Shown here: positions 2 to 16,495 of the stretch, one piece after another
Layout of the letters: each line of letters starts with the position of its first letter
Numbering within the stretch: position 1 is the first letter of the stretch
Assembly (NCBI GenBank): GCA_964626935.1
Contig: CAZVIU010000003.1
Location: forward strand, 1 to 36,290
Direction of reading: 5' to 3'
Source: an uncultured Gammaproteobacteria bacterium
Lineage (GTDB): Bacteria > Patescibacteriota > Patescibacteriia > CAZVIU01
DNA length: 36,290 bases
Notes under the pieces: model-generated
Databases searched by the model: none
The model's input: only the letters and a program-made list of their open reading frames with translations
Told to the model about the DNA's origin: nothing
Translations under genes and position numbers: made by a program

Positions 2-3000
2 TCAGCAGCCGGTGCCGGAGTTGGCACAGGTCTGACTGTTTCTTTAGCTCCGGATAATCCAGGAGCTTCAACTTGGGTTGTCGACGCAGCTAATGACACT
101 GCTTCATCACAAGGTTTAGCCACAGCTTTGAAGTTACGTTTTACTGCTTCAGCTGATGGCGCTGTTAAAGTCAAAACCTTGAAGCTCAAGAGAAGCGGTA
201 TTTCTGCTGATTCTGATTTGAAATCGCTTCACTTATACAGTGATGGTGTTCCAACACCGATGACTAGACTCGCCGATTATACTTCAATTGCTTCAGGCGT
301 TGTTACCTTTAATGATGCTAACGGCTTATTCACTGTGGCAGCTGGCAAAAGCTCTGATGTTGCAGTTCGTGTAGACCTTGATCGCAATACCGCAACTGGT
401 AAAACTCTTAGGTTTTCTCTTGAGGCTGCGGCTGATGTCGCCACTGATGGCAGTGCTGTTAGCGGTTCGCTCCCATTAACAAGCGCGACTCATGAAACTG
501 CTGCGGTCAGCGATTTTGCTCGTGTGCAGGTTTCAGGCGAAACTATTCCGGCGTCAGTTGATTCTGGCACCACCAATAAAGAAGCTTTACGCTTTAATTT
601 CCAGGCAACTGGTCAAAAAGTAGAGCTCCGTGGTGTTAATTTCAAAATGGTTGGCACGGCCGGAAACGCTGACATCACCAATCTTAAACTATTTGATGGC
701 GGCACCCAGCTTGGTTCAACCGTTCTCGGGTTAGCTTCAGATGGTACAGCTTGGTTTGATCTTTCGGCCAGCCCATTAGTAGTTAGCGCTGGTGTTACCA
801 AAACTTTAACAATTAATGTTGATGTTGTTGGCGGCGTAAACCGCACCTTTGAAATGACAGTACAGAAAGAAACAGACTGGGTTATTTGGGACACCAATTA
901 TAGCGCTTATGTTTTACCAGATGATTCTAGCGCTATTGGTACTTATACAGTGCTTGAGGGGGCTTCAAATATCTCTATCAATGCTGGTACGCTCACCATG
1001 AGCAAAGCCACTGATTCACCAACTGGCGATGTTACAAGAAGTTCTACCAATATTGAAGTTGCTAGATTTGATTTCAAAGCCAGCGGTGAAGCAGTTAAGA
1101 TTGAAAATGTTTATATGTGGTGTGACGTCTCTGACATTGGCGATACTGGAACCGGCGGTTTGGATAATATGAAACTTTTAGTTGATGGCGTGCAAGTTGG
1201 CACGACCGCCGATTGTACTGAAGAGGATGAAATTAATGTTAATCTTGGTTCAGCCTTCATTATTCCGGGTAATACCACTAAGACGTTATCAGTTAAAGCT
1301 GATACATATACTGTTGCTGCTGGCGCTCATACAGCTGGCGCGGTTGTTACTGTTTCTATTCGTCGAGATGACTCTACTTCTGCTCCGGGTACAGCTCGCG
1401 GTCAAGTATCGTTATCAGCTATTACCATGACTAATGTTACTGGCAATAGTTTGACCTTTAGAACTGGCGCTGTAACATCAGCCAGCAATGTTACACTCGG
1501 CAATTATTCAGCAACAAATCCAACAGGCGTAGCTAACGCCCAAGGCGTTCGTTTGGCCTCGTTTGTTGTCACTGGTGGTCTTGGTGAAGATGCCGATGTG
1601 ACGAGAATCCGATTGCGCGATGGTACAACTAACAGCAATCTAGGTGAAGACTTCCAGAATTTAAGAGTTATCCGCCGTGACACTGGAGCACAGGTTGGTA
1701 CCACTGTTGGCGCCTTAAATACTGGCTCAACAGTTGGTAATTATACCTTTACCCCAGGAACTGCTATTCGCGTTAAAAAATCAGAACAGTTAGTCTTTGA
1801 TGTCTATGCTGATGTTTTATCAACCGTAACTAACTCGGCTACTGTTTATACCGGTCTTGACCTACTGGACGTTAGCGCTACAGGTGTAGTTACTGGCGCT
1901 GCTGCTGATGACACTACAGCCAGACCCCTGCAGCAAATTTATCTAGCCGCTTCTGGAAACTTAACCGTGACTGCTGATGCGTCTACACCAAACGCTGATA
2001 ATCTAGTACTTGCTCAGACTGGAGTAGAATTGGCTCGTTTCAGGTTTGCAGCTGACGCGGCTGAAGCAGCCAATGTTTCGCAGGTTATTACCACCTTCCA
2101 GCACAGGAATCTTGGTGGTGATGTTTCAACCAACTCTGTTACTGGTACTTGGAGAAACCTGAAAGTCTATGAAGCAGAGTCAGGCGCACTTTTGGGCACA
2201 GCCGCAACCCTGTCAACTACGAACAATACAGTGCATCCGTATGCTACTTTTGCCGGACTTTCATGGAATATTCCAAAAGGCGGAGCTAAGACCTTAGTTG
2301 TTAAAGCTGACTTATCACCATTTGATGATGGTGGTGTGGCTAGCTCAACTTGGAGAGTGGAAATTCGTGAGAATTACACATCTAACAATGCTTCCGCCCA
2401 GGCGGACGAATCAGTCGCAGCTCGCGGCGTAGGCAGTGGTTCTGATCTTACTGGTGGCAGTTTAGATATTGGCGCTGATACTGATTCAGATGTTCGTGGT
2501 TCAGTAATGGATGTATTTAAGAGCAAGCTGACCCTAGCTCACGCGTCTGATGCCCCATCAGGAGTACAATCAGCTGGCACAGAGCAGACTGTGGCTAAGT
2601 TTGTGGTTAGTAACACTTCGGCTGGTGGTTACACTGCCATGCTTGAACTTCTGAATCTGACAATTACTGCAGCTGGCGCGTCACTTACCGGAGCTAGCGC
2701 TGATGTAAATGTGTACAAGTCATCAGTGACTACAGCCAACAGGTTATCAACGACTGATGACTGTTCAGTAACACTTGGTTGTCCGGCGGGTGGAAGTTGG
2801 GCTGGAACTGCCGGAGGCAATAAGACTTCAGTTACTGATGCTAACTTTACTGACACACAAATTAGCGCCGGATCAAGTCTTACCCTCATTGTTACCATGG
2901 AGACAAATACAGCCGGCTTTAGCGCCAATGAAACCTTAACGGTTGGTGTTGGTAGTCAAGCTGCGGTTAATTTTCTTAAATGGGATGATGATGCTAATGA

Positions 3001-3067
3001 CGCAACTGGTCGAGACTACACTGTTTCAACCAGCTTGCCGCTCACAGGTAAGACCCTCATCTACTAA
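2..3067 (+). CDS. Giant repetitive Thr/Ser/Ala/Gly-rich cell-surface protein (S-layer/adhesin-like), 5' end outside window
   Basis: The frame is open from nt 2 to TAA 3065-3067, with no stop before the TTG at 128 used by the ORF track. About seven divergent 130-150 aa modules share a pattern: hAxFxFxA, then V..h.h, then NhKLh.G...hGT, then KTLxVKAD. Examples are EALRFNFQATGQKVELRGVNF..NLKLFDGGTQLGST, IEVARFDFKASGEAVKIENVY..NMKLLVDGVQVGTT, VRLASFVVTGG..NLRVIRRDTGAQVGTT, VELARFRFAADAAEA..NLKVYEAESGALLGTA and TVAKFVVSNTSAGG. The composition is beta-rich, low-charge and Cys-poor, and a strong terminator follows. Function is inferred from composition and architecture only. Confidence 0.7.
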   Translation, partial: SAAGAGVGTGLTVSLAPDNPGASTWVVDAANDTASSQGLATALKLRFTASADGAVKVKTLKLKRSGISADSDLKSLHLYSDGVPTPMTRLADYTSIASGVVTFNDANGLFTVAAGKSSDVAVRVDLDRNTATGKTLRFSLEAAADVATDGSAVSGSLPLTSATHETAAVSDFARVQVSGETIPASVDSGTTNKEALRFNFQATGQKVELRGVNFKMVGTAGNADITNLKLFDGGTQLGSTVLGLASDGTAWFDLSASPLVVSAGVTKTLTINVDVVGGVNRTFEMTVQKETDWVIWDTNYSAYVLPDDSSAIGTYTVLEGASNISINAGTLTMSKATDSPTGDVTRSSTNIEVARFDFKASGEAVKIENVYMWCDVSDIGDTGTGGLDNMKLLVDGVQVGTTADCTEEDEINVNLGSAFIIPGNTTKTLSVKADTYTVAAGAHTAGAVVTVSIRRDDSTSAPGTARGQVSLSAITMTNVTGNSLTFRTGAVTSASNVTLGNYSATNPTGVANAQGVRLASFVVTGGLGEDADVTRIRLRDGTTNSNLGEDFQNLRVIRRDTGAQVGTTVGALNTGSTVGNYTFTPGTAIRVKKSEQLVFDVYADVLSTVTNSATVYTGLDLLDVSATGVVTGAAADDTTARPLQQIYLAASGNLTVTADASTPNADNLVLAQTGVELARFRFAADAAEAANVSQVITTFQHRNLGGDVSTNSVTGTWRNLKVYEAESGALLGTAATLSTTNNTVHPYATFAGLSWNIPKGGAKTLVVKADLSPFDDGGVASSTWRVEIRENYTSNNASAQADESVAARGVGSGSDLTGGSLDIGADTDSDVRGSVMDVFKSKLTLAHASDAPSGVQSAGTEQTVAKFVVSNTSAGGYTAMLELLNLTITAAGASLTGASADVNVYKSSVTTANRLSTTDDCSVTLGCPAGGSWAGTAGGNKTSVTDANFTDTQISAGSSLTLIVTMETNTAGFSANETLTVGVGSQAAVNFLKWDDDANDATGRDYTVSTSLPLTGKTLIY

Positions 3068-3135
3068 CCAGTTAGTATGAGGTAGTCTAAAGCAGAGACC
3101 CCACTACTTGCGATAAAGGCAATAGTGCAGTCAAA

Positions 3136-3168
3136 CCCCCCCCGATGTACATCGGGGGGGTTGTTTTT
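3136..3168 (+). terminator. Rho-independent terminator after surface-protein gene
   Basis: CCCCCCCCGAT-GTAC-ATCGGGGGGG is a perfect GC-rich hairpin (3136-3160) followed by TTGTTTTT. Confidence 0.85.
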
Positions 3169-3180
3169 CAGCTGTTTTTA

Positions 3181-3386
3181 GAGCCCGAAGCACCTTGGGC
3201 GCTTCTGGTTTTATTCTTGGGCCCGAAGCACCTTGGGCGCTTCGGGCCCGGCTATAGGCTTATCTTGTTTTGATCAGTTTATCGTGTTAATATCTTTGAG
3301 TCGGTTTGGTTATGAGCCCGAAGCGTCTTGGGCGTTTCGGATTTGGTTATATTTTCGGCCCGAAGCGCCCAAGGCGCTTCGGGCCC
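3181..3386. repeat. Four copies of palindromic REP-like element GCCCGAAGCRC-N4-6-GCGCTTCGGGC
   Basis: Copies lie at 3181-3208, 3219-3249, 3314-3340 and 3357-3386. Full copies read GGGCCCGAAGCACCTTGGGCGCTTCGGGCCC and are followed by a conserved RGCTAYNNGCT tail. Confidence 0.9.
3265..3293 (+). promoter_or_regulatory. Putative sigma70-type promoter for the first Wzy_C-TPR gene
   Basis: TTGTTT (3265-3270), a 17-nt spacer ending in TGT (extended -10), then TAATAT (3288-3293). This is a pattern match only. It would place REP copies 3 and 4 in the 5' UTR. Confidence 0.25.
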
Positions 3387-3392
3387 AGCTAT

Positions 3393-5744
3393 ATGCTAAA
3401 ATTTATTCGTAATCTTTTCTTATTTTCACCACTGATTTTTTTCGCTTACACGCCGTGGACTTTATATCCGGCGATCTTTGGCCGGACGATCATTTTTCAG
3501 ATCATTGTTGAAGTGATATTAGTTATAGTTATACTTGCTAATTTATTTGGGCGATCGTTAACCGGCGGAGAATTAGGAATTAAGCCCCGACGTAAAGCCC
3601 CGATATCTAAGATACAGGCTGCCGATCATAGTATCGGCACCCAAAGCGCTATTAGGAGCGCTTCGGGCTTTGTTTTGGGCCCGAAGCGCCTTGAGCGCTT
3701 CGGGCCCAGCTACTGGCTTCTCGGGATCCCAACCGAAGCGTCGGGAAATTATGAATTATGGGGACGAGCTAAGGAGATATTTTTTTCACCAATTGGGGCG
3801 AGCCTAATAATTTTTACTCTAGTTCAGTTTGTTTCTTATCTCTTTTCAGTTGATCAAGAGGCAAGCTTTTGGGGAAGTATGTCGCGAATGGATGGCATAT
3901 TTAGCTGGCTGCATATGGCAGCGCTTTTCTTTTTATTAGTTGCATTTTTGGATAAATCTGCCTGGTCCAAATTTTTAAAAATTAATGTTGTCATCGCTGG
4001 GGTCCTAAGTATTTTAGCCGTGATTCAGCATTTTTACGACCCTGTTCCTAAATATATAATTCAATCCGGTCGAGTTTATGCCACTTTTGGCAACCCAGTG
4101 TTTTTTGCCCTGTATTTATTGTTCACGATTTTTCTTACATTATATTTTTTATTGGGAGTTGAAACGAAACAAACATTGAGCCCGAAGCGCTATTATGAGC
4201 GCTTCGGGCTCAACAGACGACGCGTTGCGAAATATTTTTTTATCGGAATGCTCGCGATTTTACAAATAGTCGCGCTTTTTTGGACTGGGAGTCAGGGAGC
4301 AATTGGAGGATTTTTGGTTGGGATTTTGGTTCTTAGTTTAATAGGATTAATAAGGCAGTTCACTACCCCAGAGGTGGCGGCCACGCAAAGAATTAAGTTA
4401 GTGAGACTCATGGGAATTATAGGTATCGTCGGACTCATAAGTTTCATGGGTTTTTTCAAATTAGGTTTGGGGCAATTCGTTCGGTTACGCGAGCTTTCTT
4501 CAGTTGAAGGATTAGAAGCCCGAACAACTGTTTGGAAAATGGGTTTACAAGGATTTAAGGAACGGCCGATTTTGGGATTTGGCCCGTCAACTTTTGAATA
4601 CGTTTTTGATAAATATTATAATCCTGAACTTTTGCGGCACTCTTTTTACGAAACCGTTTCTAACAAGCCGCATAATATTTTTGTGGAAACGCTTGATCAT
4701 TTGGGGACTTTGGGATTTTTAAGTTATTTAGGTATATTTACCGCCGCCATCCTTGTTTTGCGAAAAATTAGAAAAATAGATTTTAAATTAGCTGTTATTG
4801 GTTTCGGACTTTTAGTCGCCTATCTTGGGGCCTTGCAATTTTCTTTTGATACAACTAATTCGTGGTATATGTTTGTGGTATTTTTGGCCTATATAACAGC
4901 AAGAGAACAAGAGAACAAGAGAACAAGAGAACAAGAGAACAGCGGGACTCTGTATCAGTCCGGTGGCCAGCCGATGGATACAAGACGGGCATCAAAACAT
5001 AAAAATAAACTTGTTTTCATGTTTTCATGTTTTAATGTTTTAGTGATAGCGGCGGCATTGTGGTTTGGCAACATTGAAGCTTGGGCGGCATCGGTACCCG
5101 GAGCCAGATCAAAAAATAAGTATTGGTTTCAAAAACCAATTAAGTGGGCCAATGAAGTTAGGAAAGCTATTGACGGGCCAAGTCCATATCATGATGAAAT
5201 TCGCGTAATTTTCGCGCAAGACTTGATCAAGTGGGAGGCGGGCGGCAATCTGCCAATGGTTGAGATTCAAGATCAAGTTAGTTTACTTAGGAGCAAGCTA
5301 GAAGAGAGCGCGAGTCAACACCCAAGTAATTTTCAATATCGTTTTACTTCGGCACAAATACAAGGCATTGAGGCAGAGAATTTTGACATGGCTAGATTAG
5401 GTGAAGCCATCAATTCCGCGCGTCAAGCGCGAGACTTATCACCGCGTCGTCAAGCGGCCTATTTAATTTTAGGCAAGCTTTTGCTTCAAAATGGAGATTT
5501 AAGAAGCGCCGAAGAGTTTGCGAATAAAGCGGTTGAGTTATATAAATTTGCCCCAGAATCGCACTGGTTTTTGGGCATAATCAAAAGCGCTGAAGAAAGA
5601 CTAGATGAAGCTGTTGCCGAATTCAGGCTGGCTCGTGAACTTGGCTACGATTTTAAGCCGCAAGAGATAATTTATTGGATGAGTATTAATAAAAAACGTG
5701 ATAGGGCGGAAGAGAATGATGAGCTAAGGTTGCTGCTTCAGTAA
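3393..5744 (+). CDS. O-antigen-ligase-family (Wzy_C) polytopic membrane protein with C-terminal TPR domain, paralog 1 (carries in-frame repeat insertions)
   Basis: The N-terminus MLKFIRNLFLFSPLIFFAYTPWTLYP aligns with paralogs 2-4. Shared motifs are SVDQEASFWGSMSRMDG, GNPVFFALYL, TGSQGA and ILGFGPSTFEYVFDKYYNPELLRHSFYETVSNKPHNIFVETL. The C-terminal TPR-like helices carry LSPRRQ and ESHWFLG. The ORF is open back to 3306 only because two REP copies are stop-free, so ATG 3393 is preferred. Confidence 0.8.
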   Translation: MLKFIRNLFLFSPLIFFAYTPWTLYPAIFGRTIIFQIIVEVILVIVILANLFGRSLTGGELGIKPRRKAPISKIQAADHSIGTQSAIRSASGFVLGPKRLERFGPSYWLLGIPTEASGNYELWGRAKEIFFSPIGASLIIFTLVQFVSYLFSVDQEASFWGSMSRMDGIFSWLHMAALFFLLVAFLDKSAWSKFLKINVVIAGVLSILAVIQHFYDPVPKYIIQSGRVYATFGNPVFFALYLLFTIFLTLYFLLGVETKQTLSPKRYYERFGLNRRRVAKYFFIGMLAILQIVALFWTGSQGAIGGFLVGILVLSLIGLIRQFTTPEVAATQRIKLVRLMGIIGIVGLISFMGFFKLGLGQFVRLRELSSVEGLEARTTVWKMGLQGFKERPILGFGPSTFEYVFDKYYNPELLRHSFYETVSNKPHNIFVETLDHLGTLGFLSYLGIFTAAILVLRKIRKIDFKLAVIGFGLLVAYLGALQFSFDTTNSWYMFVVFLAYITAREQENKRTREQENSGTLYQSGGQPMDTRRASKHKNKLVFMFSCFNVLVIAAALWFGNIEAWAASVPGARSKNKYWFQKPIKWANEVRKAIDGPSPYHDEIRVIFAQDLIKWEAGGNLPMVEIQDQVSLLRSKLEESASQHPSNFQYRFTSAQIQGIEAENFDMARLGEAINSARQARDLSPRRQAAYLILGKLLLQNGDLRSAEEFANKAVELYKFAPESHWFLGIIKSAEERLDEAVAEFRLARELGYDFKPQEIIYWMSINKKRDRAEENDELRLLLQ
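3644..3707. repeat. REP-like palindromes (one partial, one full copy) inside paralog-1 CDS
   Basis: 3644-3669 is AAGCGCTATTAGGAGCGCTTCGGGC (partial). 3677-3707 is GGGCCCGAAGCGCCTTGAGCGCTTCGGGCCC (full). They are translated in-frame as ..SAIRSASGFVLGPKRLERFGPSYW. Confidence 0.9.
4178..4211. repeat. REP-like palindrome inside paralog-1 CDS
   Basis: GAGCCCGAAGCGCTATTATGAGCGCTTCGGGCTC is read in-frame as LSPKRYYERFGL, in a loop that is shorter in paralogs 2-4. Confidence 0.9.
4901..4940 (+). repeat. Perfect octamer array (AAGAGAAC)x5 inside CDS
   Basis: This is a direct read of five exact units, translated REQENKRTREQEN. Confidence 0.95.
5013..5042 (+). repeat. Octamer array GTTTTCAT/GTTTTAAT x3.7 inside CDS
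   Basis: GTTTTCAT GTTTTCAT GTTTTAAT GTTTTA is translated FMFSCFNVL. The same array type occurs at 31392-31424 and, reverse-complemented, at 25549-25580. Confidence 0.9.
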
Positions 5745-15220: not shown

Positions 15221-16495
15221 CGAGTTGTAATCTTCAGCACCTTCTACGAGCCCTTTATGTCTGGGGCCGAACGAATGGTTAAAGAAGTAGTAGAGCGGTT
15301 GCAAGAGCGCTATTCGTTTATAATTGTTACTTCTCGTTTAAGACGCAATTTGCCCCAGTTTGTTGAGGTCGAACATCGACGCACTTTGCAGCGAGCAGGA
15401 GCGAGCGAAAGAAGGAGGTTCGACCTCGATGACAGTCGAATTAAAATTGTGCGGATCGGTTTTGGTTGGAAATTTGATAAATTTTTGTATCCAATTCTCG
15501 CGCCGTTTTACGCATTAAGATATAGGCCGAAGATTGTTCACGCGATAATGGAGAGCTACGCGGGAATCGCGCTTTTAGTTTATTCGTATCTCGCCAAACT
15601 TTCAAAACCCTTAATTCTTAATTCTCAATTCTTAATTCTAACCTTACGGCGGAGATCGAATCTCGACGCACTCTGCAGCGAGCAGGAGCGAGCGAAAGAA
15701 GGAGATTCGATCTCGCATAAAAATGTATTCACCATTCTAACACTCCAGAGCGGTGACCTTGACCTACCAGAAAAACAGGCGCGGATTCCTAGGTGGCTTT
15801 GGAAGCGAATACATTGTGCGCCCAATCTCATAGTTTCTATTGGAAATTCAATGGCCGAGCGTGCAAGAAAGTTGGGAGCAAAGAGTGTTCGAGTTATTCC
15901 CAACGGTGTTAATCTTACGGAGGTCCGACCTCCAAATATACGGAGGTCGGACCTCCGTCAACATCATATTGTATGTGTTGCCCGTCTTTCTCCTGAAAAG
16001 GGAATTGAATATCTAATCGAAGCAATGCCCTTCGTAATAGCGCAATACCCTGATGCCGAGCTGGTTTTGGTGGGAAATGGCGCATTGAGAGAAAAGCTAC
16101 AAGCTACAAGCTACAAGCTACAAGCTCATGTTGAGTTTAGAGGCACGTTATCTCATGAGAAAACTCTTGAAGAAATGGCCACCTCTGATATTCTCGTTTT
16201 GCCATCTTTAGCCGAGGGCATGGGCATTGTGTTAGTCGAAGCTCAAGCGCTCGGCGTTCCAGTAATCGGTACTAATGTTGGCGGTATTCCAGATGTTATT
16301 GAGCACGAAAGAACAGGCCTGCTCGTGCCGCCACATGACCCGCGCGCAATCGCGCAAGCAGTCATTCGCTTATTTCATGATCACGAACTAAGAGAACGCA
16401 TGGTTGTTGAAGCGGAAACGCGTCTTCTTAAATTTGATTGGCAGAAGATCGCGGAAGAATATAGGAACATTTATGATCAGGTATCAAGCGTATAA
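15215..16495 (+). CDS. GT4-family glycosyltransferase carrying five in-frame repeat insertions
   Basis: The C-terminal motif is ILVLPSLAEGMGIVLVEAQALGVPVIGTNVGGIPDVIEHERTGLLVPP, and ARLSPEKGIEYLIEA is present. The N-domain is interrupted by repeat-encoded segments (see repeats at 15365, 15611, 15652, 15917 and 16094). Confidence 0.85.
   Translation: MTRVVIFSTFYEPFMSGAERMVKEVVERLQERYSFIIVTSRLRRNLPQFVEVEHRRTLQRAGASERRRFDLDDSRIKIVRIGFGWKFDKFLYPILAPFYALRYRPKIVHAIMESYAGIALLVYSYLAKLSKPLILNSQFLILTLRRRSNLDALCSEQERAKEGDSISHKNVFTILTLQSGDLDLPEKQARIPRWLWKRIHCAPNLIVSIGNSMAERARKLGAKSVRVIPNGVNLTEVRPPNIRRSDLRQHHIVCVARLSPEKGIEYLIEAMPFVIAQYPDAELVLVGNGALREKLQATSYKLQAHVEFRGTLSHEKTLEEMATSDILVLPSLAEGMGIVLVEAQALGVPVIGTNVGGIPDVIEHERTGLLVPPHDPRAIAQAVIRLFHDHELRERMVVEAETRLLKFDWQKIAEEYRNIYDQVSSV
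15365..15427 (+). repeat. 63-nt hairpin element, copy 1 (GAGGTCGAAC-N43-GTTCGACCTC)
   Basis: It has a 10-bp perfect stem and is translated EVEHRRTLQRAGASERRRFDL, with element position 1 at codon position 1. Confidence 0.9.
15611..15640 (+). repeat. Heptamer array TTAATTC x4.3 inside CDS
   Basis: TTAATTC TTAATTC TCAATTC TTAATTC TA is translated LILNSQFLIL. Confidence 0.9.
15652..15714 (+). repeat. 63-nt hairpin element, copy 2 (GAGATCGAAT-N43-ATTCGATCTC)
   Basis: The core CGACGCACTYTGCAGCGAGCAGGAGCGAGCGAAAGAAGGAG matches copy 1, which differs at one position within it (the Y). It is read in a different frame, as RRSNLDALCSEQERAKEGDSIS. Confidence 0.9.
15917..15957 (+). repeat. Two adjacent copies of palindrome ACGGAGGTCSGACCTCC inside CDS
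   Basis: Copies lie at 15917-15933 and 15940-15957 and are translated TEVRPPNIRRSDLR. The arms resemble the stem of the 63-nt element. Confidence 0.9.
16094..16127 (+). repeat. Heptamer array (AAGCTAC)x4 perfect plus a partial unit, inside CDS
   Basis: This is a direct read, translated KLQATSYKLQA. Confidence 0.95.

What the first reader, a model, noticed from the sequence alone, without database searches (positions are those of the whole stretch)
3552..3746. 65-aa mosaic insertion in the first loop of paralog 1, built entirely from repeat fragments
Seen: between ILANLFG and NYELWGRAKEIFF, paralogs 2-4 have about 10 residues and paralog 1 has about 75. The extra 195 nt is a patchwork. It contains GAATTAG GAATTAA (two units of the TTAATTC-family heptamer, 3568-3581), GCCCCGA twice 13 nt apart, the hairpin GCCGAT-CATAGT-ATCGGC, 1.5 REP copies and CCGA-AGCG-TCGG. 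The length is exactly a multiple of 3. Inference: different repeat families accumulate at one tolerated site, a nested-insertion hotspot.
Basis: partly seen in the sequence, partly recalled or inferred. Interest (0 to 1): 0.6.

Follow-up and report, generated by a model that had tools for sequence, protein, structure and literature searches.

The report
Nested palindromic repeats translated inside a gene
The extra 65 amino acids in this membrane-protein gene of an ultra-small (Patescibacteria) bacterium are complete mobile-type DNA repeats nested one inside another and read through in frame as a floppy loop, which is a known trick of "selfish" palindromes (as in Rickettsia) seen here in a new lineage.

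Summary
Paralog 1 (Wzy_C/WaaL-like plus TPR, 3393-5744) has 134 residues where 62 relatives have 58-73.

The extra DNA is not a patchwork of fragments. It is three complete layers in regular order:
- A four-unit GAATTAA heptamer array (3570-3584 and 3747-3760).
- An 81-nt multi-hairpin element, here called "O" (3585-3639 and 3721-3746).
- An 81-nt REP doublet (3640-3720).

Each layer has an "empty" counterpart elsewhere in the genome. The whole 162-nt core recurs at 92% identity in an intergenic spacer on contig C36. So the inner nesting need not have happened at this site.

O copies also sit in frame in MurD-like, MurB and PfkB genes. Deleting the core restores an in-phase heptamer array in all 8 array-embedded copies, with no target duplication.

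The REP arm (GGGCCCGAAGC) forms the inverted repeats that flank a RAYT-like Y1 transposase gene on C38.

AlphaFold models the host fold well (pLDDT 84). The insert is a low-confidence coil.

Verdict: this is an RPE/REP-like in-frame palindromic insertion in a candidate-phyla-radiation genome, probably tolerated and without a function of its own. The "hotspot" reading is only partly supported. Earlier follow-ups in this scan had already noted in-frame repeats in this genome.

The parts
3393..5744 (+). Host gene, paralog 1: Wzy_C (O-antigen-ligase/WaaL-like) membrane domain plus C-terminal TPR. The gene caller starts it at ATG 3312.
   Evidence: Pfam Wzy_C E=3e-16 and TPR. AlphaFold pLDDT 84.4, pTM 0.86. 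Best PDB fold match is WaaL 7tpg. It keeps 55 of 73 family-conserved positions, like paralogs 2-3.
3570..3584 (+). Left half of a GAATTAA-type heptamer array (GAATTAG GAATTAA G), translated as ELGIK.
   Evidence: The genome holds 44 arrays of this type with 3 or more units, 17 of them inside ORFs.
3585..3639 (+). Left arm of the 81-nt 'O' multi-hairpin element. It holds the outer stem 5' half CCCCGACG, the inner stem 5' half CCCCGAT and the hairpin GCCGAT-CATAGT-ATCGGC.
   Evidence: Shared at 87-89% with C27, C28, C60 and C19. Pairs with 3721-3746 in the minimum-energy fold.
3640..3720 (+). REP doublet of 81 nt nested in the O element. It has two hairpins with arms (G)GGCCCGAAGCGC / GCGCTTCGGGCC(C), a T-rich spacer and the tail CAGCTACTGGCTTC.
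   Evidence: Absent at the exact same junction in the C27 and C19 O copies. Same unit at 3179-3264 and 3312-3401. The arm core equals the inverted repeats flanking the Y1 transposase gene on C38.
3721..3746 (+). Right arm of the O element (TCGGGA TCCCAAC-CGAAGC-GTCGGGA).
   Evidence: The same hairpin occurs in other genomes of the class.
3747..3760 (+). Right half of the heptamer array (AATTATG AATTATG), translated as NYEL. The usual AATTAAG would give an in-frame TAA.
   Evidence: Joining 3584 to 3747 restores an in-phase array, with 6 of 7 matches across the joint. The C36 copy has TAA here. The MurD copy has CAA.
3179..3264 (+). REP doublet A, in the spacer upstream of paralog 1.
   Evidence: family D1.
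3312..3401 (+). REP doublet B. Both candidate start codons of paralog 1 (ATG 3312 and ATG 3393) lie inside it.
4176..4213 (+). Single REP hairpin translated in frame (..SPKRYYERFG..) in a later loop of paralog 1.
   Evidence: 16-nt perfect arms (I11). 93% identical to the first hairpin of the 3640-3720 doublet (D4). Paralogs 2-3 lack about 18 residues here. pLDDT dips to 61-77.

Best explanation
What it is. The extra segment is a translated, in-frame insertion of non-autonomous palindromic repeat DNA with three nested layers:
- A short GAATTAA heptamer array of four units, of a kind that sits in frame in many genes of this genome.
- Inside it, at the joint ...TTAAG|AATTA..., an 81-nt multi-hairpin 'O' element.
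- Inside that, an 81-nt REP doublet.

How it got there. The 162-nt O+REP core exists as one unit at a second locus (C36). It therefore behaves as one composite element. Whether the composite was first assembled here or at C36 is unresolved.

How the layers move (inferred). The REP layer belongs to a small, lineage-specific family. Its arms are the inverted repeats flanking a RAYT-like HUH/Y1 transposase gene on C38, which is the likely mobilising enzyme. The O layer inserts without target duplication at a fixed short sequence, as elements moved by single-strand Y1 transposases do.

What it does to the protein. Ribosomes read through it, giving about 64 extra residues. These form a basic, Gly/Pro/Ser-rich, probably disordered loop between two transmembrane helices of a WaaL-like protein. 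The loop is tolerated and not shown to be useful. Selection is visible only as survival of the one stop-free frame and as removal of the TAA that the heptamer would otherwise give.

Shown and inferred. Shown: the anatomy, the copies, the empty intermediates, the in-frame copies in other genes, the RAYT flanks and the structural model. Inferred: mobility, the enzyme, translation and neutrality.
For: Layers and intermediates:
- blastn splits the segment into O arms (C27, C19, C28, C60) and the REP doublet.
- C27 and C19 join the two O arms directly (sequences; alignment).
- C36:1793-1973 is 91.7% identical over 181 nt, including both internal junctions, and is intergenic.

Array embedding:
- In 8 copies, deleting the core (42, 81, 101 or 162 nt) leaves heptamers in phase. 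Matches across the joint are 5-7 of 7 (6-7 in seven of the eight copies), against 0-4 at other shifts. No duplication is seen.
- There are 44 GAATTAA arrays, and only about 5 carry an O element.

In-frame copies in other genes:
- A MurD-like ligase on C27 reads the O element in the same frame (KELRIKSRGKVPIPKIQDADRSIGIGIPTEVSGNQELRK). MurB on C51 and a PfkB kinase on C12 also carry copies.
- A relative's TPP enzyme carries an O-type hairpin in frame.

Frame and selection:
- 1 of 6 frames is open.
- A composition-matched random sequence is stop-free in a given frame with P = 0.057.
- The right heptamer reads TAA at C36, TAT in paralog 1 and CAA in MurD.

Transposase link:
- The genome has three Y1_Tnp genes, with REP_Tyr_transpos as best NCBIfam hit.
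- The C38 gene (453-1130) is flanked by the 17-mer GGGCCCGAAGCCCCGAT at 421 and its reverse complement at 1130.
- The 11-mer arm core occurs 18 times in the genome against 0.13 expected.

Host gene integrity:
- 783 codons are open, and 55 of 73 conserved positions are kept.
- AlphaFold gives pLDDT 84.4. Residues 58-119 score 42-59 and are coil, lying between helices 29-57 and 120-130.
- The insert has 9 K+R against 5 D+E.
- The core has 59% GC against 40% for the rest of the gene.
Against: - No orthologue with an empty site exists in any collection searched, so insertion is inferred only from paralogues and distant homologues.
Translation and population polymorphism are untested.
- Paralog 1 has lost two near-invariant family residues (R301Q, D424N) and part of its TPR tail. 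It may not be a working enzyme.
- The RAYT-like proteins score 45 bits against the curated 80-bit cut-off. They share only the first 11 nt of their flanking repeat with the REP arms.
- No transposase is linked to the O family.
- The heptamers could be part of the O element and not its target. In a relative, the same hairpin sits in arrays of other units.
Confidence: 0.72

Rival explanations
1. In-situ nested hotspot. The array, the O element and the REP doublet each inserted separately at this one tolerated loop. The C36 composite is a later copy of the one built here.
For: - Three of the four REP doublets in the genome, plus a single hairpin, lie within 1 kb around paralog 1. This would fit local hopping of the doublet into an O element already sitting in the loop.
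- Solo arrays and doublet-free O elements exist as possible earlier stages.
- The first hairpin of the doublet (loop TATTAGGA) is closest to the nearby hairpin at 4176-4213, at 93%.
Against: - The identical composite at C36 shows that it also moves or copies as a unit.
- The loop is of fixed length in all 62 relatives.
- Nesting is explained by target preference, since 8 O copies share the same array joint. Hairpin-in-hairpin nesting is also seen elsewhere in the genome, at C60, C17, C4 and C10.
- Sequence characters give mixed signals on which copy is older.
Confidence: 0.3
2. Paralog 1 is a decaying, non-functional copy. The repeats pile up because nothing selects against them, and the open frame is luck or very recent.
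For: - It has lost R301 (98% conserved) and D424 (97% conserved).
- The TPR tail is truncated.
- It carries five separate repeat-derived stretches, including 8-nt arrays at 4900-4941 and 5012-5041.
- Its start codons lie inside a REP doublet.
Against: - There is no stop or frameshift in 783 codons of a 40% GC gene.
- Its conservation score equals that of paralogs 2 and 3, and the AlphaFold model is confident.
- Every repeat is in frame, and the heptamer TAA has been replaced.
- The same elements sit in frame in MurB and a MurD-like ligase, which are normally indispensable.
- The 8% divergence from the C36 copy suggests the insert is not brand new.
Confidence: 0.1
3. The insert has a function of its own. 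It could be an intragenic RNA or DNA structure, since the first REP hairpin followed by UUUGUUUU resembles an intrinsic terminator that could attenuate expression. It could be a slippage-prone switch. Or it could be a selected new cytoplasmic loop.
For: - It has a strong predicted structure (z = -3.75).
- A T-rich tract follows the first hairpin in all three doublets.
- Terminator-like sites are over-represented in 3000-4400, with 8 found against 2.2 expected.
- The loop is basic, like the short native loop.
Against: - The stems carry uncompensated mismatches in both composite copies.
- Copies occur in unrelated genes and in spacers in either context.
- Only two heptamer units lie on each side, which is poor for slippage.
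- No Rfam family reaches its threshold.
- The insert is modelled without structure.
Confidence: 0.1
4. Assembly artefact. The metagenome assembler joined repeat-containing reads wrongly, so the insert is not really inside the gene.
For: - The genome is a 125-contig metagenome bin.
- Other-sample contigs of this locus break inside paralogs 3 and 4 and never reach paralog 1.
Against: - The paralog 1 copy differs from its only close relative (C36) at 15 of 181 positions, so C36 reads cannot have produced it.
- The reading frame of a conserved protein continues on both sides.
- The junctions have the same form as in 7 other loci.
Confidence: 0.03

Closest known systems
Rickettsia palindromic elements (RPEs; Ogata et al., as summarised in PMC10969869 and PMC3733652)
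   Same: - They are palindromic repeats of about 100-150 nt inserted in frame into unrelated, often essential genes.
- They are read through as extra peptide in places compatible with the fold.
- Copies are also intergenic.
- The host has a small, reduced genome.
   Different: - The lineage is different (Patescibacteria, not Alphaproteobacteria), and no sequence relationship is shown.
- Here the element is nested in a heptamer microsatellite and carries a second repeat family inside it.
- Copy number is far lower, at about 10-20.
REP / REPIN-RAYT systems (Bertels & Rainey 2011, PMC3116915; PMC3337134; PMC5581495)
   Same: - It is a short GC-rich palindrome family occurring as doublets.
- A Y1 (HUH) transposase homologue is flanked by inverted copies of the repeat arm.
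- The family is lineage-specific.
   Different: - There are only about 13 hairpins, not hundreds.
- The doublet is two tandem hairpins, not two inverted REPs forming one long hairpin.
- The transposase scores below NCBI's RAYT cut-off, and the genome has three such genes.
- About a third of the copies are inside ORFs.
Intragenic REP clusters (Di Nocera et al. 2013, PMC3733652)
   Same: That paper reports REP singletons, dimers and clusters inside ORFs. They encode 20-30 aa, and up to 43-82 aa in Thauera and R. conorii. Some genes are hit twice.
   Different: - Those REPs are GTAG- or CGTC-tagged families of Proteobacteria and a few other phyla.
- No candidate-phyla-radiation case and no microsatellite embedding is described there.
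BIMEs (bacterial interspersed mosaic elements of E. coli; own knowledge)
   Same: They are mosaic combinations of REP units with other short motifs in a regular order.
   Different: BIMEs are extragenic and are not translated.
IS200/IS605-family elements and their miniature derivatives (own knowledge of the family)
   Same: The O core inserts next to a fixed short sequence, makes no target-site duplication and has hairpins at the ends. This is the behaviour expected of single-strand Y1 transposition.
   Different: No O-linked transposase was found. The mechanism is inferred from junctions only.

Membership tests
REP/REPIN-RAYT | Short (20-40 nt) GC-rich imperfect palindrome repeated in the genome | tested here: met
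   The 29-31 nt hairpin GGCCCGAAGC-N9-GCTTCGGGCC occurs 8 times in this genome and in 1 of 300 other genomes of the class. The arm 11-mer occurs 18 times against 0.13 expected.
REP/REPIN-RAYT | A RAYT (HUH/Y1 transposase) gene flanked by the REP sequence in inverted orientation | tested here: met
   The C38 gene (453-1130) has GGGCCCGAAGCCCCGAT at 421 and its reverse complement at 1130. The first 11 nt equal the REP arm. The other two Y1 genes are flanked by other palindromes or are cut by contig ends.
REP/REPIN-RAYT | The transposase belongs to the RAYT family by curated model | tested here: not met
   NF047646 REP_Tyr_transpos is the only hit but scores 44-46 bits against a cut-off of 80. 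Pfam Y1_Tnp is above its cut-off. The HFH and Y-x-H-x-NP motifs are present by eye.
REP/REPIN-RAYT | REPIN form: two REPs in inverted orientation that together form one long hairpin | tested here: inconclusive
   Each hairpin is itself two inverted 13-nt arms 5 nt apart. The doublet is two such hairpins in tandem with a T-rich spacer.
REP/REPIN-RAYT | Conserved unpaired GTAG (or CGTC) tag at one end (PMC3733652) | tested here: inconclusive
   On the minus strand the paralog 1 and C36 doublets read GTAG-CT-GGGCCC. Doublets A and B read ATAG. The C4 and C10 copies read CGTC-GTT-GGGCCC.
REP/REPIN-RAYT | High copy number and mainly extragenic location | tested here: not met
   There are about 13 hairpins. 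Four to five are inside ORFs: three in paralog 1 if doublet B is counted, one in the C6 GT4 gene and one inside the C38 gene.
Rickettsia palindromic elements (works-like comparison) | Palindromic element inserted in frame in several unrelated protein genes and read through | tested here: met
   Found in paralog 1, a MurD-like ligase, MurB and a PfkB kinase. Translation itself is not testable here.
Rickettsia palindromic elements (works-like comparison) | Sequence membership in an RPE family | not tested
   No RPE sequences were compared. The host lineage is unrelated, so I claim analogy only.
MITE (IS-derived, DDE type) | Terminal inverted repeats plus a target-site duplication | tested here: not met
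   The outer stem CCCCGACG/CGTCGGGA could serve as inverted repeats. However, the flanks join in phase with no duplicated bases in 8 copies.
Self-splicing intron or other known RNA | Match to an Rfam family at its gathering score | tested here: not met
   Only sub-threshold hairpin look-alikes were found in 3000-4400.

The most novel reading that the evidence does not exclude
In this bacterial class, short heptamer microsatellites and hairpin elements may form one linked system. The arrays, including those sitting in frame inside genes, would serve as landing pads for palindromic elements moved by HUH/Y1 transposases, or would be generated beside them. Those palindromes would in turn be landing pads for REP doublets. 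This layered targeting would let selfish DNA enter even essential genes without breaking them. It would be a regular source of new disordered protein loops in ultra-small genomes.
Probability: 0.25. Interest if true: 0.7.

Novelty: new member of a known kind. Interest (0 to 1): 0.45.

Why it matters
Candidate-phyla-radiation bacteria have about 1 Mb of tightly packed genes and are usually described as poor in mobile DNA. This one shows the following:
- Palindromic repeats colonise coding sequence, including cell-wall genes, in the way known from Rickettsia.
- The repeats form a clean nested series, with every intermediate still present in the same genome.
- A candidate transposase gene carries the repeat arms at its ends.

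That makes the system a compact natural case for studying three things: how REP-like elements choose targets, how proteins absorb 20-65 extra residues, and whether microsatellite arrays and hairpin elements are mechanistically linked. For annotation, it warns that long 'loops' in such genomes may be repeat DNA and not lineage-specific protein features.

Tried and rejected
Searches that led nowhere:
- Orthologue with an empty site. The protein search gave nothing above 28% identity. The JGI metagenome scan with six peptides of paralog 1 found no relative. The genome has no same-family relative among 40 and then 300 class genomes.
- Other-sample contigs of the locus (L011-L014) stop in paralogs 3 and 4.
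- Contigs for the C36 locus from other JGI records are 100% identical, so they give no polymorphism. Of 32 metagenome hits to the O|REP junction 18-mer, 31 were chance matches.

Readings I rejected:
- Intron or known RNA: Rfam gave only sub-threshold hairpin look-alikes.
- An internal start downstream of the insert: the ATGs at 3751 and 3758 are out of frame, and the N-terminal helix upstream keeps family-conserved residues.
- Target-site duplication: none at array joints. A possible K-N codon duplication at the MurB site is not convincing.
- CGTC-REP membership of the O hairpin: its CGTC lies inside the stem and is not an unpaired tag, and its stem and loop sizes differ from the published families.
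- Generic over-representation of CCCGAC: absent, at 236 observed against 226 expected. The O family is therefore defined by whole hairpins and not by that 6-mer.
- The weak direct repeat 3470-3494 / 3550-3574 (72%) was judged chance.
Full report
SETTING. The window is contig C3 of a 1.0-Mb, 125-contig, 42% GC genome. Its only relatives among held genomes are 'same class'. Named homologues of its proteins come from Kaiserbacteria, Paceibacterota and Patescibacteria bins.

After a >1000-aa surface-type protein and its terminator (3137-3160) come four tandem paralogues of a Wzy_C (O-antigen-ligase-like) membrane domain fused to TPR repeats. The AlphaFold model of paralog 1 is most like the WaaL ligase 7tpg.

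OBSERVATION. Paralog 1 (ATG 3393, or ATG 3312 by the gene caller, to 5744) has 134 residues between IIFQIIVE and FWGSMSRM. The other three paralogues and 59 homologues have 58-73 residues there, and 47 of these 62 have exactly 63.

The REP arm is strongly over-represented, at 11 against 0.56 expected in the window. The segment folds far better than shuffles, at -85.4 kcal/mol with z = -3.75.

The repeat-derived stretch is 3570-3760. 3552-3569 matches nothing else in the genome.

ANATOMY. A sensitive blastn of the segment against the whole genome, together with the printed loci, resolves three layers.

1. Heptamers. GAATTAG GAATTAA G lies at 3570-3584, and AATTATG AATTATG at 3747-3760.

2. An 81-nt multi-hairpin element, which I call O. 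Its left arm is 3585-3639 and its right arm is 3721-3746.
   - The outer stem is CCCCGACG/CGTCGGGA.
   - The inner stem is CCCCGAT/(A)TCGGGA.
   - It contains the small hairpin GCCGAT-CATAGT-ATCGGC and a terminal hairpin TCCCAAC-CGAAGC-GTCGGGA.

3. An 81-nt REP doublet at 3640-3720.
   - It has two hairpins with arms GGGCCCGAAGCGC/GCGCTTCGGGCCC.
   - A T-rich spacer separates them, and the tail is CAGCTACTGGCTTC.
   - The same doublet occurs twice just upstream of the gene, at 3179-3264 and 3312-3401.

Every layer has an empty counterpart elsewhere in the genome:
- C27:2331-2411 and C19 carry the O element with the two arms joined exactly where the doublet sits here (ATCGGCA|TCGGGATCC).
- C51, C10, C2 and C27b carry a 42-nt short O with a different inner hairpin.
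- The genome holds 44 GAATTAA-type arrays of 3 or more units. Only about 5 of them carry an O element.

THE COMPOSITE IS NOT UNIQUE TO THIS SITE. C36:1793-1973 is 91.7% identical over 181 nt, including both O|REP junctions. It lies in a 253-nt spacer between two genes.

At least one of the two composites was therefore copied as a pre-assembled 162-nt unit. Which one is older cannot be told:
- The two share the derived CATAGT loop.
- Other characters group the paralog 1 copy with C28 and the C36 copy with C27, C19 and C60.
- REP doublets are concentrated around paralog 1, which would fit assembly here followed by export.
- The opposite direction is equally possible.

Other records of the C36 locus are identical, so they do not help.

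JUNCTIONS. In all 8 array-embedded O copies the core is bounded by ...TTAAG| and |AATTA.... Deleting the core (42, 81, 101 or 162 nt) joins the heptamers in phase. Matches across the joint are 5-7 of 7 (6-7 in seven of the eight copies), against 0-4 when the right flank is slid by 1-3 nt. No bases are duplicated.

This is what insertion by single-strand HUH/Y1 transposases looks like, from my own knowledge of IS200/IS605 and REP biology. It is not what DDE-type MITEs leave.

Two readings remain:
- O targets GAATTAA arrays. Arrays are five to ten times more common than O elements, and O hairpins also occur without heptamers, for example in the C12 PfkB gene, C13, C18 and C24.
- The heptamers travel with the element. 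In genome G024, from another family, the same terminal hairpin doublet is embedded in arrays of other units: CAAATSG, CTACNTT and GCGWAAA.

CODING CONTEXT.
- Only one of the six frames of the insert is free of stops, and it is the one in use.
- A composition-matched random sequence is open in a given frame with P = 0.057.
- The intergenic C36 copy is open in the same frame through the whole core. Its only stop is the TAA of the right heptamer AATTAAG.
- Paralog 1 has AATTATG (Tyr) there. The MurD copy has AATCAAG (Gln). So two different substitutions remove the stop in two genes.
- The cores of 42, 81 and 162 nt are multiples of three.
- O copies are read in frame in three other genes. One is a MurD-like ligase, where it lies inside the Mur_ligase_C domain in the same frame as in paralog 1. 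Another is MurB, where 39 residues lie between FKN and GWLVEQ against 5 in PDB 4pyt. The third is a PfkB kinase.
- In a relative, an O-type hairpin doublet is in frame in an acetolactate-synthase-like enzyme.

In-frame survival in genes that are normally indispensable argues that these inserts are tolerated in working proteins.

IS PARALOG 1 ALIVE?
- It has 783 open codons.
- It keeps 55 of 73 positions that are at least 80% conserved in the family. Paralogs 2, 3 and 4 keep 53, 55 and 62.
- It gives a confident model, with pLDDT 84.4 and pTM 0.86.
- The insert (residues 58-119) scores pLDDT 42-59 and is coil, lying between helix 29-57 and helix 120-130.
- The insert is basic (9 K+R against 5 D+E) and rich in Gly, Pro and Ser. 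The native short loop also carries the motif Y-R-P-K-K. By the positive-inside rule the loop is probably cytoplasmic, but this is an inference.

Against full function, it alone has lost R301 and D424, it has a shortened TPR tail, and it contains further repeats. I put decay at about 10%.

WHO MOVES IT?
- The genome has three Y1_Tnp genes. Their only NCBIfam hit is REP-associated tyrosine transposase, but below the cut-off.
- The gene at C38:453-1130 is flanked by a perfect 17-nt inverted repeat, GGGCCCGAAGCCCCGAT at 421 and its complement at 1130. A third copy lies in frame inside the gene.
- This 17-mer occurs nowhere else in the genome.
- Its first 11 nt are the REP arm, which occurs 18 times against 0.13 expected.

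This is the classical signature of a RAYT and its REPs (PMC3116915, PMC3733652). The REP hairpin is lineage-specific, with 8 copies here and one copy in 1 of 300 other genomes of the class. No enzyme is linked to the O family. The same is reported for CGTC REPs (PMC3733652).

COMPARISON WITH WHAT IS KNOWN.
- In-frame palindromic inserts are the hallmark of Rickettsia RPEs (PMC10969869).
- Intragenic REP dimers and clusters coding up to 43-82 aa are documented (PMC3733652).
- Mosaic REP assemblies are known as BIMEs.
- A full-text search found no paper joining Patescibacteria or candidate phyla radiation with REP, RAYT, REPIN or MITE terms.
- Earlier follow-ups of this scan had already noted in-frame hairpins and 7-8-nt arrays in this genome.

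I therefore file this as a new member of a known kind. The added points are the complete nested series, the in-phase array junctions and the RAYT-like flanks.

LIMITS.
- No orthologue was found.
- Gene maps outside the window come from a simple longest-ORF script.
- Mobility, the enzyme assignment and translation are inferred.

Noticed in passing
window 3312-3401: The first 27 codons of the gene as called (ATG 3312) are a REP doublet. The alternative start ATG 3393 lies in the doublet's tail, where other copies read TAG or CTG. Paralog 1 is about 8-10 residues shorter at its N-terminus than its paralogues. The doublet may therefore have replaced the original start.
   Followed up: partly
G000 contig C38:421-1146: A RAYT-like Y1 transposase gene is flanked by perfect 17-nt inverted repeats. 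It also carries a third copy of the repeat in frame inside itself (..KIGASGPGPDS..).
   Followed up: partly
G000 contig C99:740-1440: A second Y1 transposase gene is flanked on both sides by a different near-palindrome, ATGTTAAACATCCGATGTCTAACAA. I did not check whether that palindrome is repeated elsewhere.
   Followed up: no
G000 contigs C4:7330-7480, C4:8390-8550, C10:700-870, C10:4270-4440: A different palindromic element of about 130 nt, with ends TAGAAGCGGAT...ATCYGCTTCTA, carries the same REP hairpin at its apex. This is another case of hairpin-in-hairpin nesting. Two copies bracket one gene on C4.
   Followed up: partly
window 15611-15705; G000 C17:4200-4260: Inside a GT4 glycosyltransferase gene, a TTAATTC array is followed directly by a hairpin of another family (GAGATCGAATCTCGACGCAC...GATTCGATCTC). 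On C17, an O-type hairpin is nested in the apex of that other family.
   Followed up: partly
L022-L032 (genome G024): In a genome of another family of the class, 11 copies of the hairpin GGGATCCCGACCGAAGCGTCGGGA are mostly embedded in heptamer arrays of other units (CAAATSG, CTACNTT, GCGWAAA). This suggests a general link between hairpin elements and period-7 arrays.
   Followed up: partly
L003 (genome G039) 184-3028: An acetolactate-synthase-like gene and the next gene, aldehyde-dehydrogenase-like, contain repeated in-frame peptides SPSP..GRGEGEG. This is probably yet another palindromic repeat family translated inside genes.
   Followed up: no
window 4900-4941 and 5012-5041: Two 8-nt tandem arrays, CAAGAGAA x5.2 and TGTTTTCA x3.8, lie in frame in the Wzy_C-TPR linker of paralog 1. 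The model confidence drops to about 50 there.
   Followed up: no
G000 contig C27:1062-2642: Besides the O element, the MurD-like ligase has an in-frame AAATCCG-type heptamer stretch (..PNPKSEIRNSKSRR..) in the same domain.
   Followed up: no
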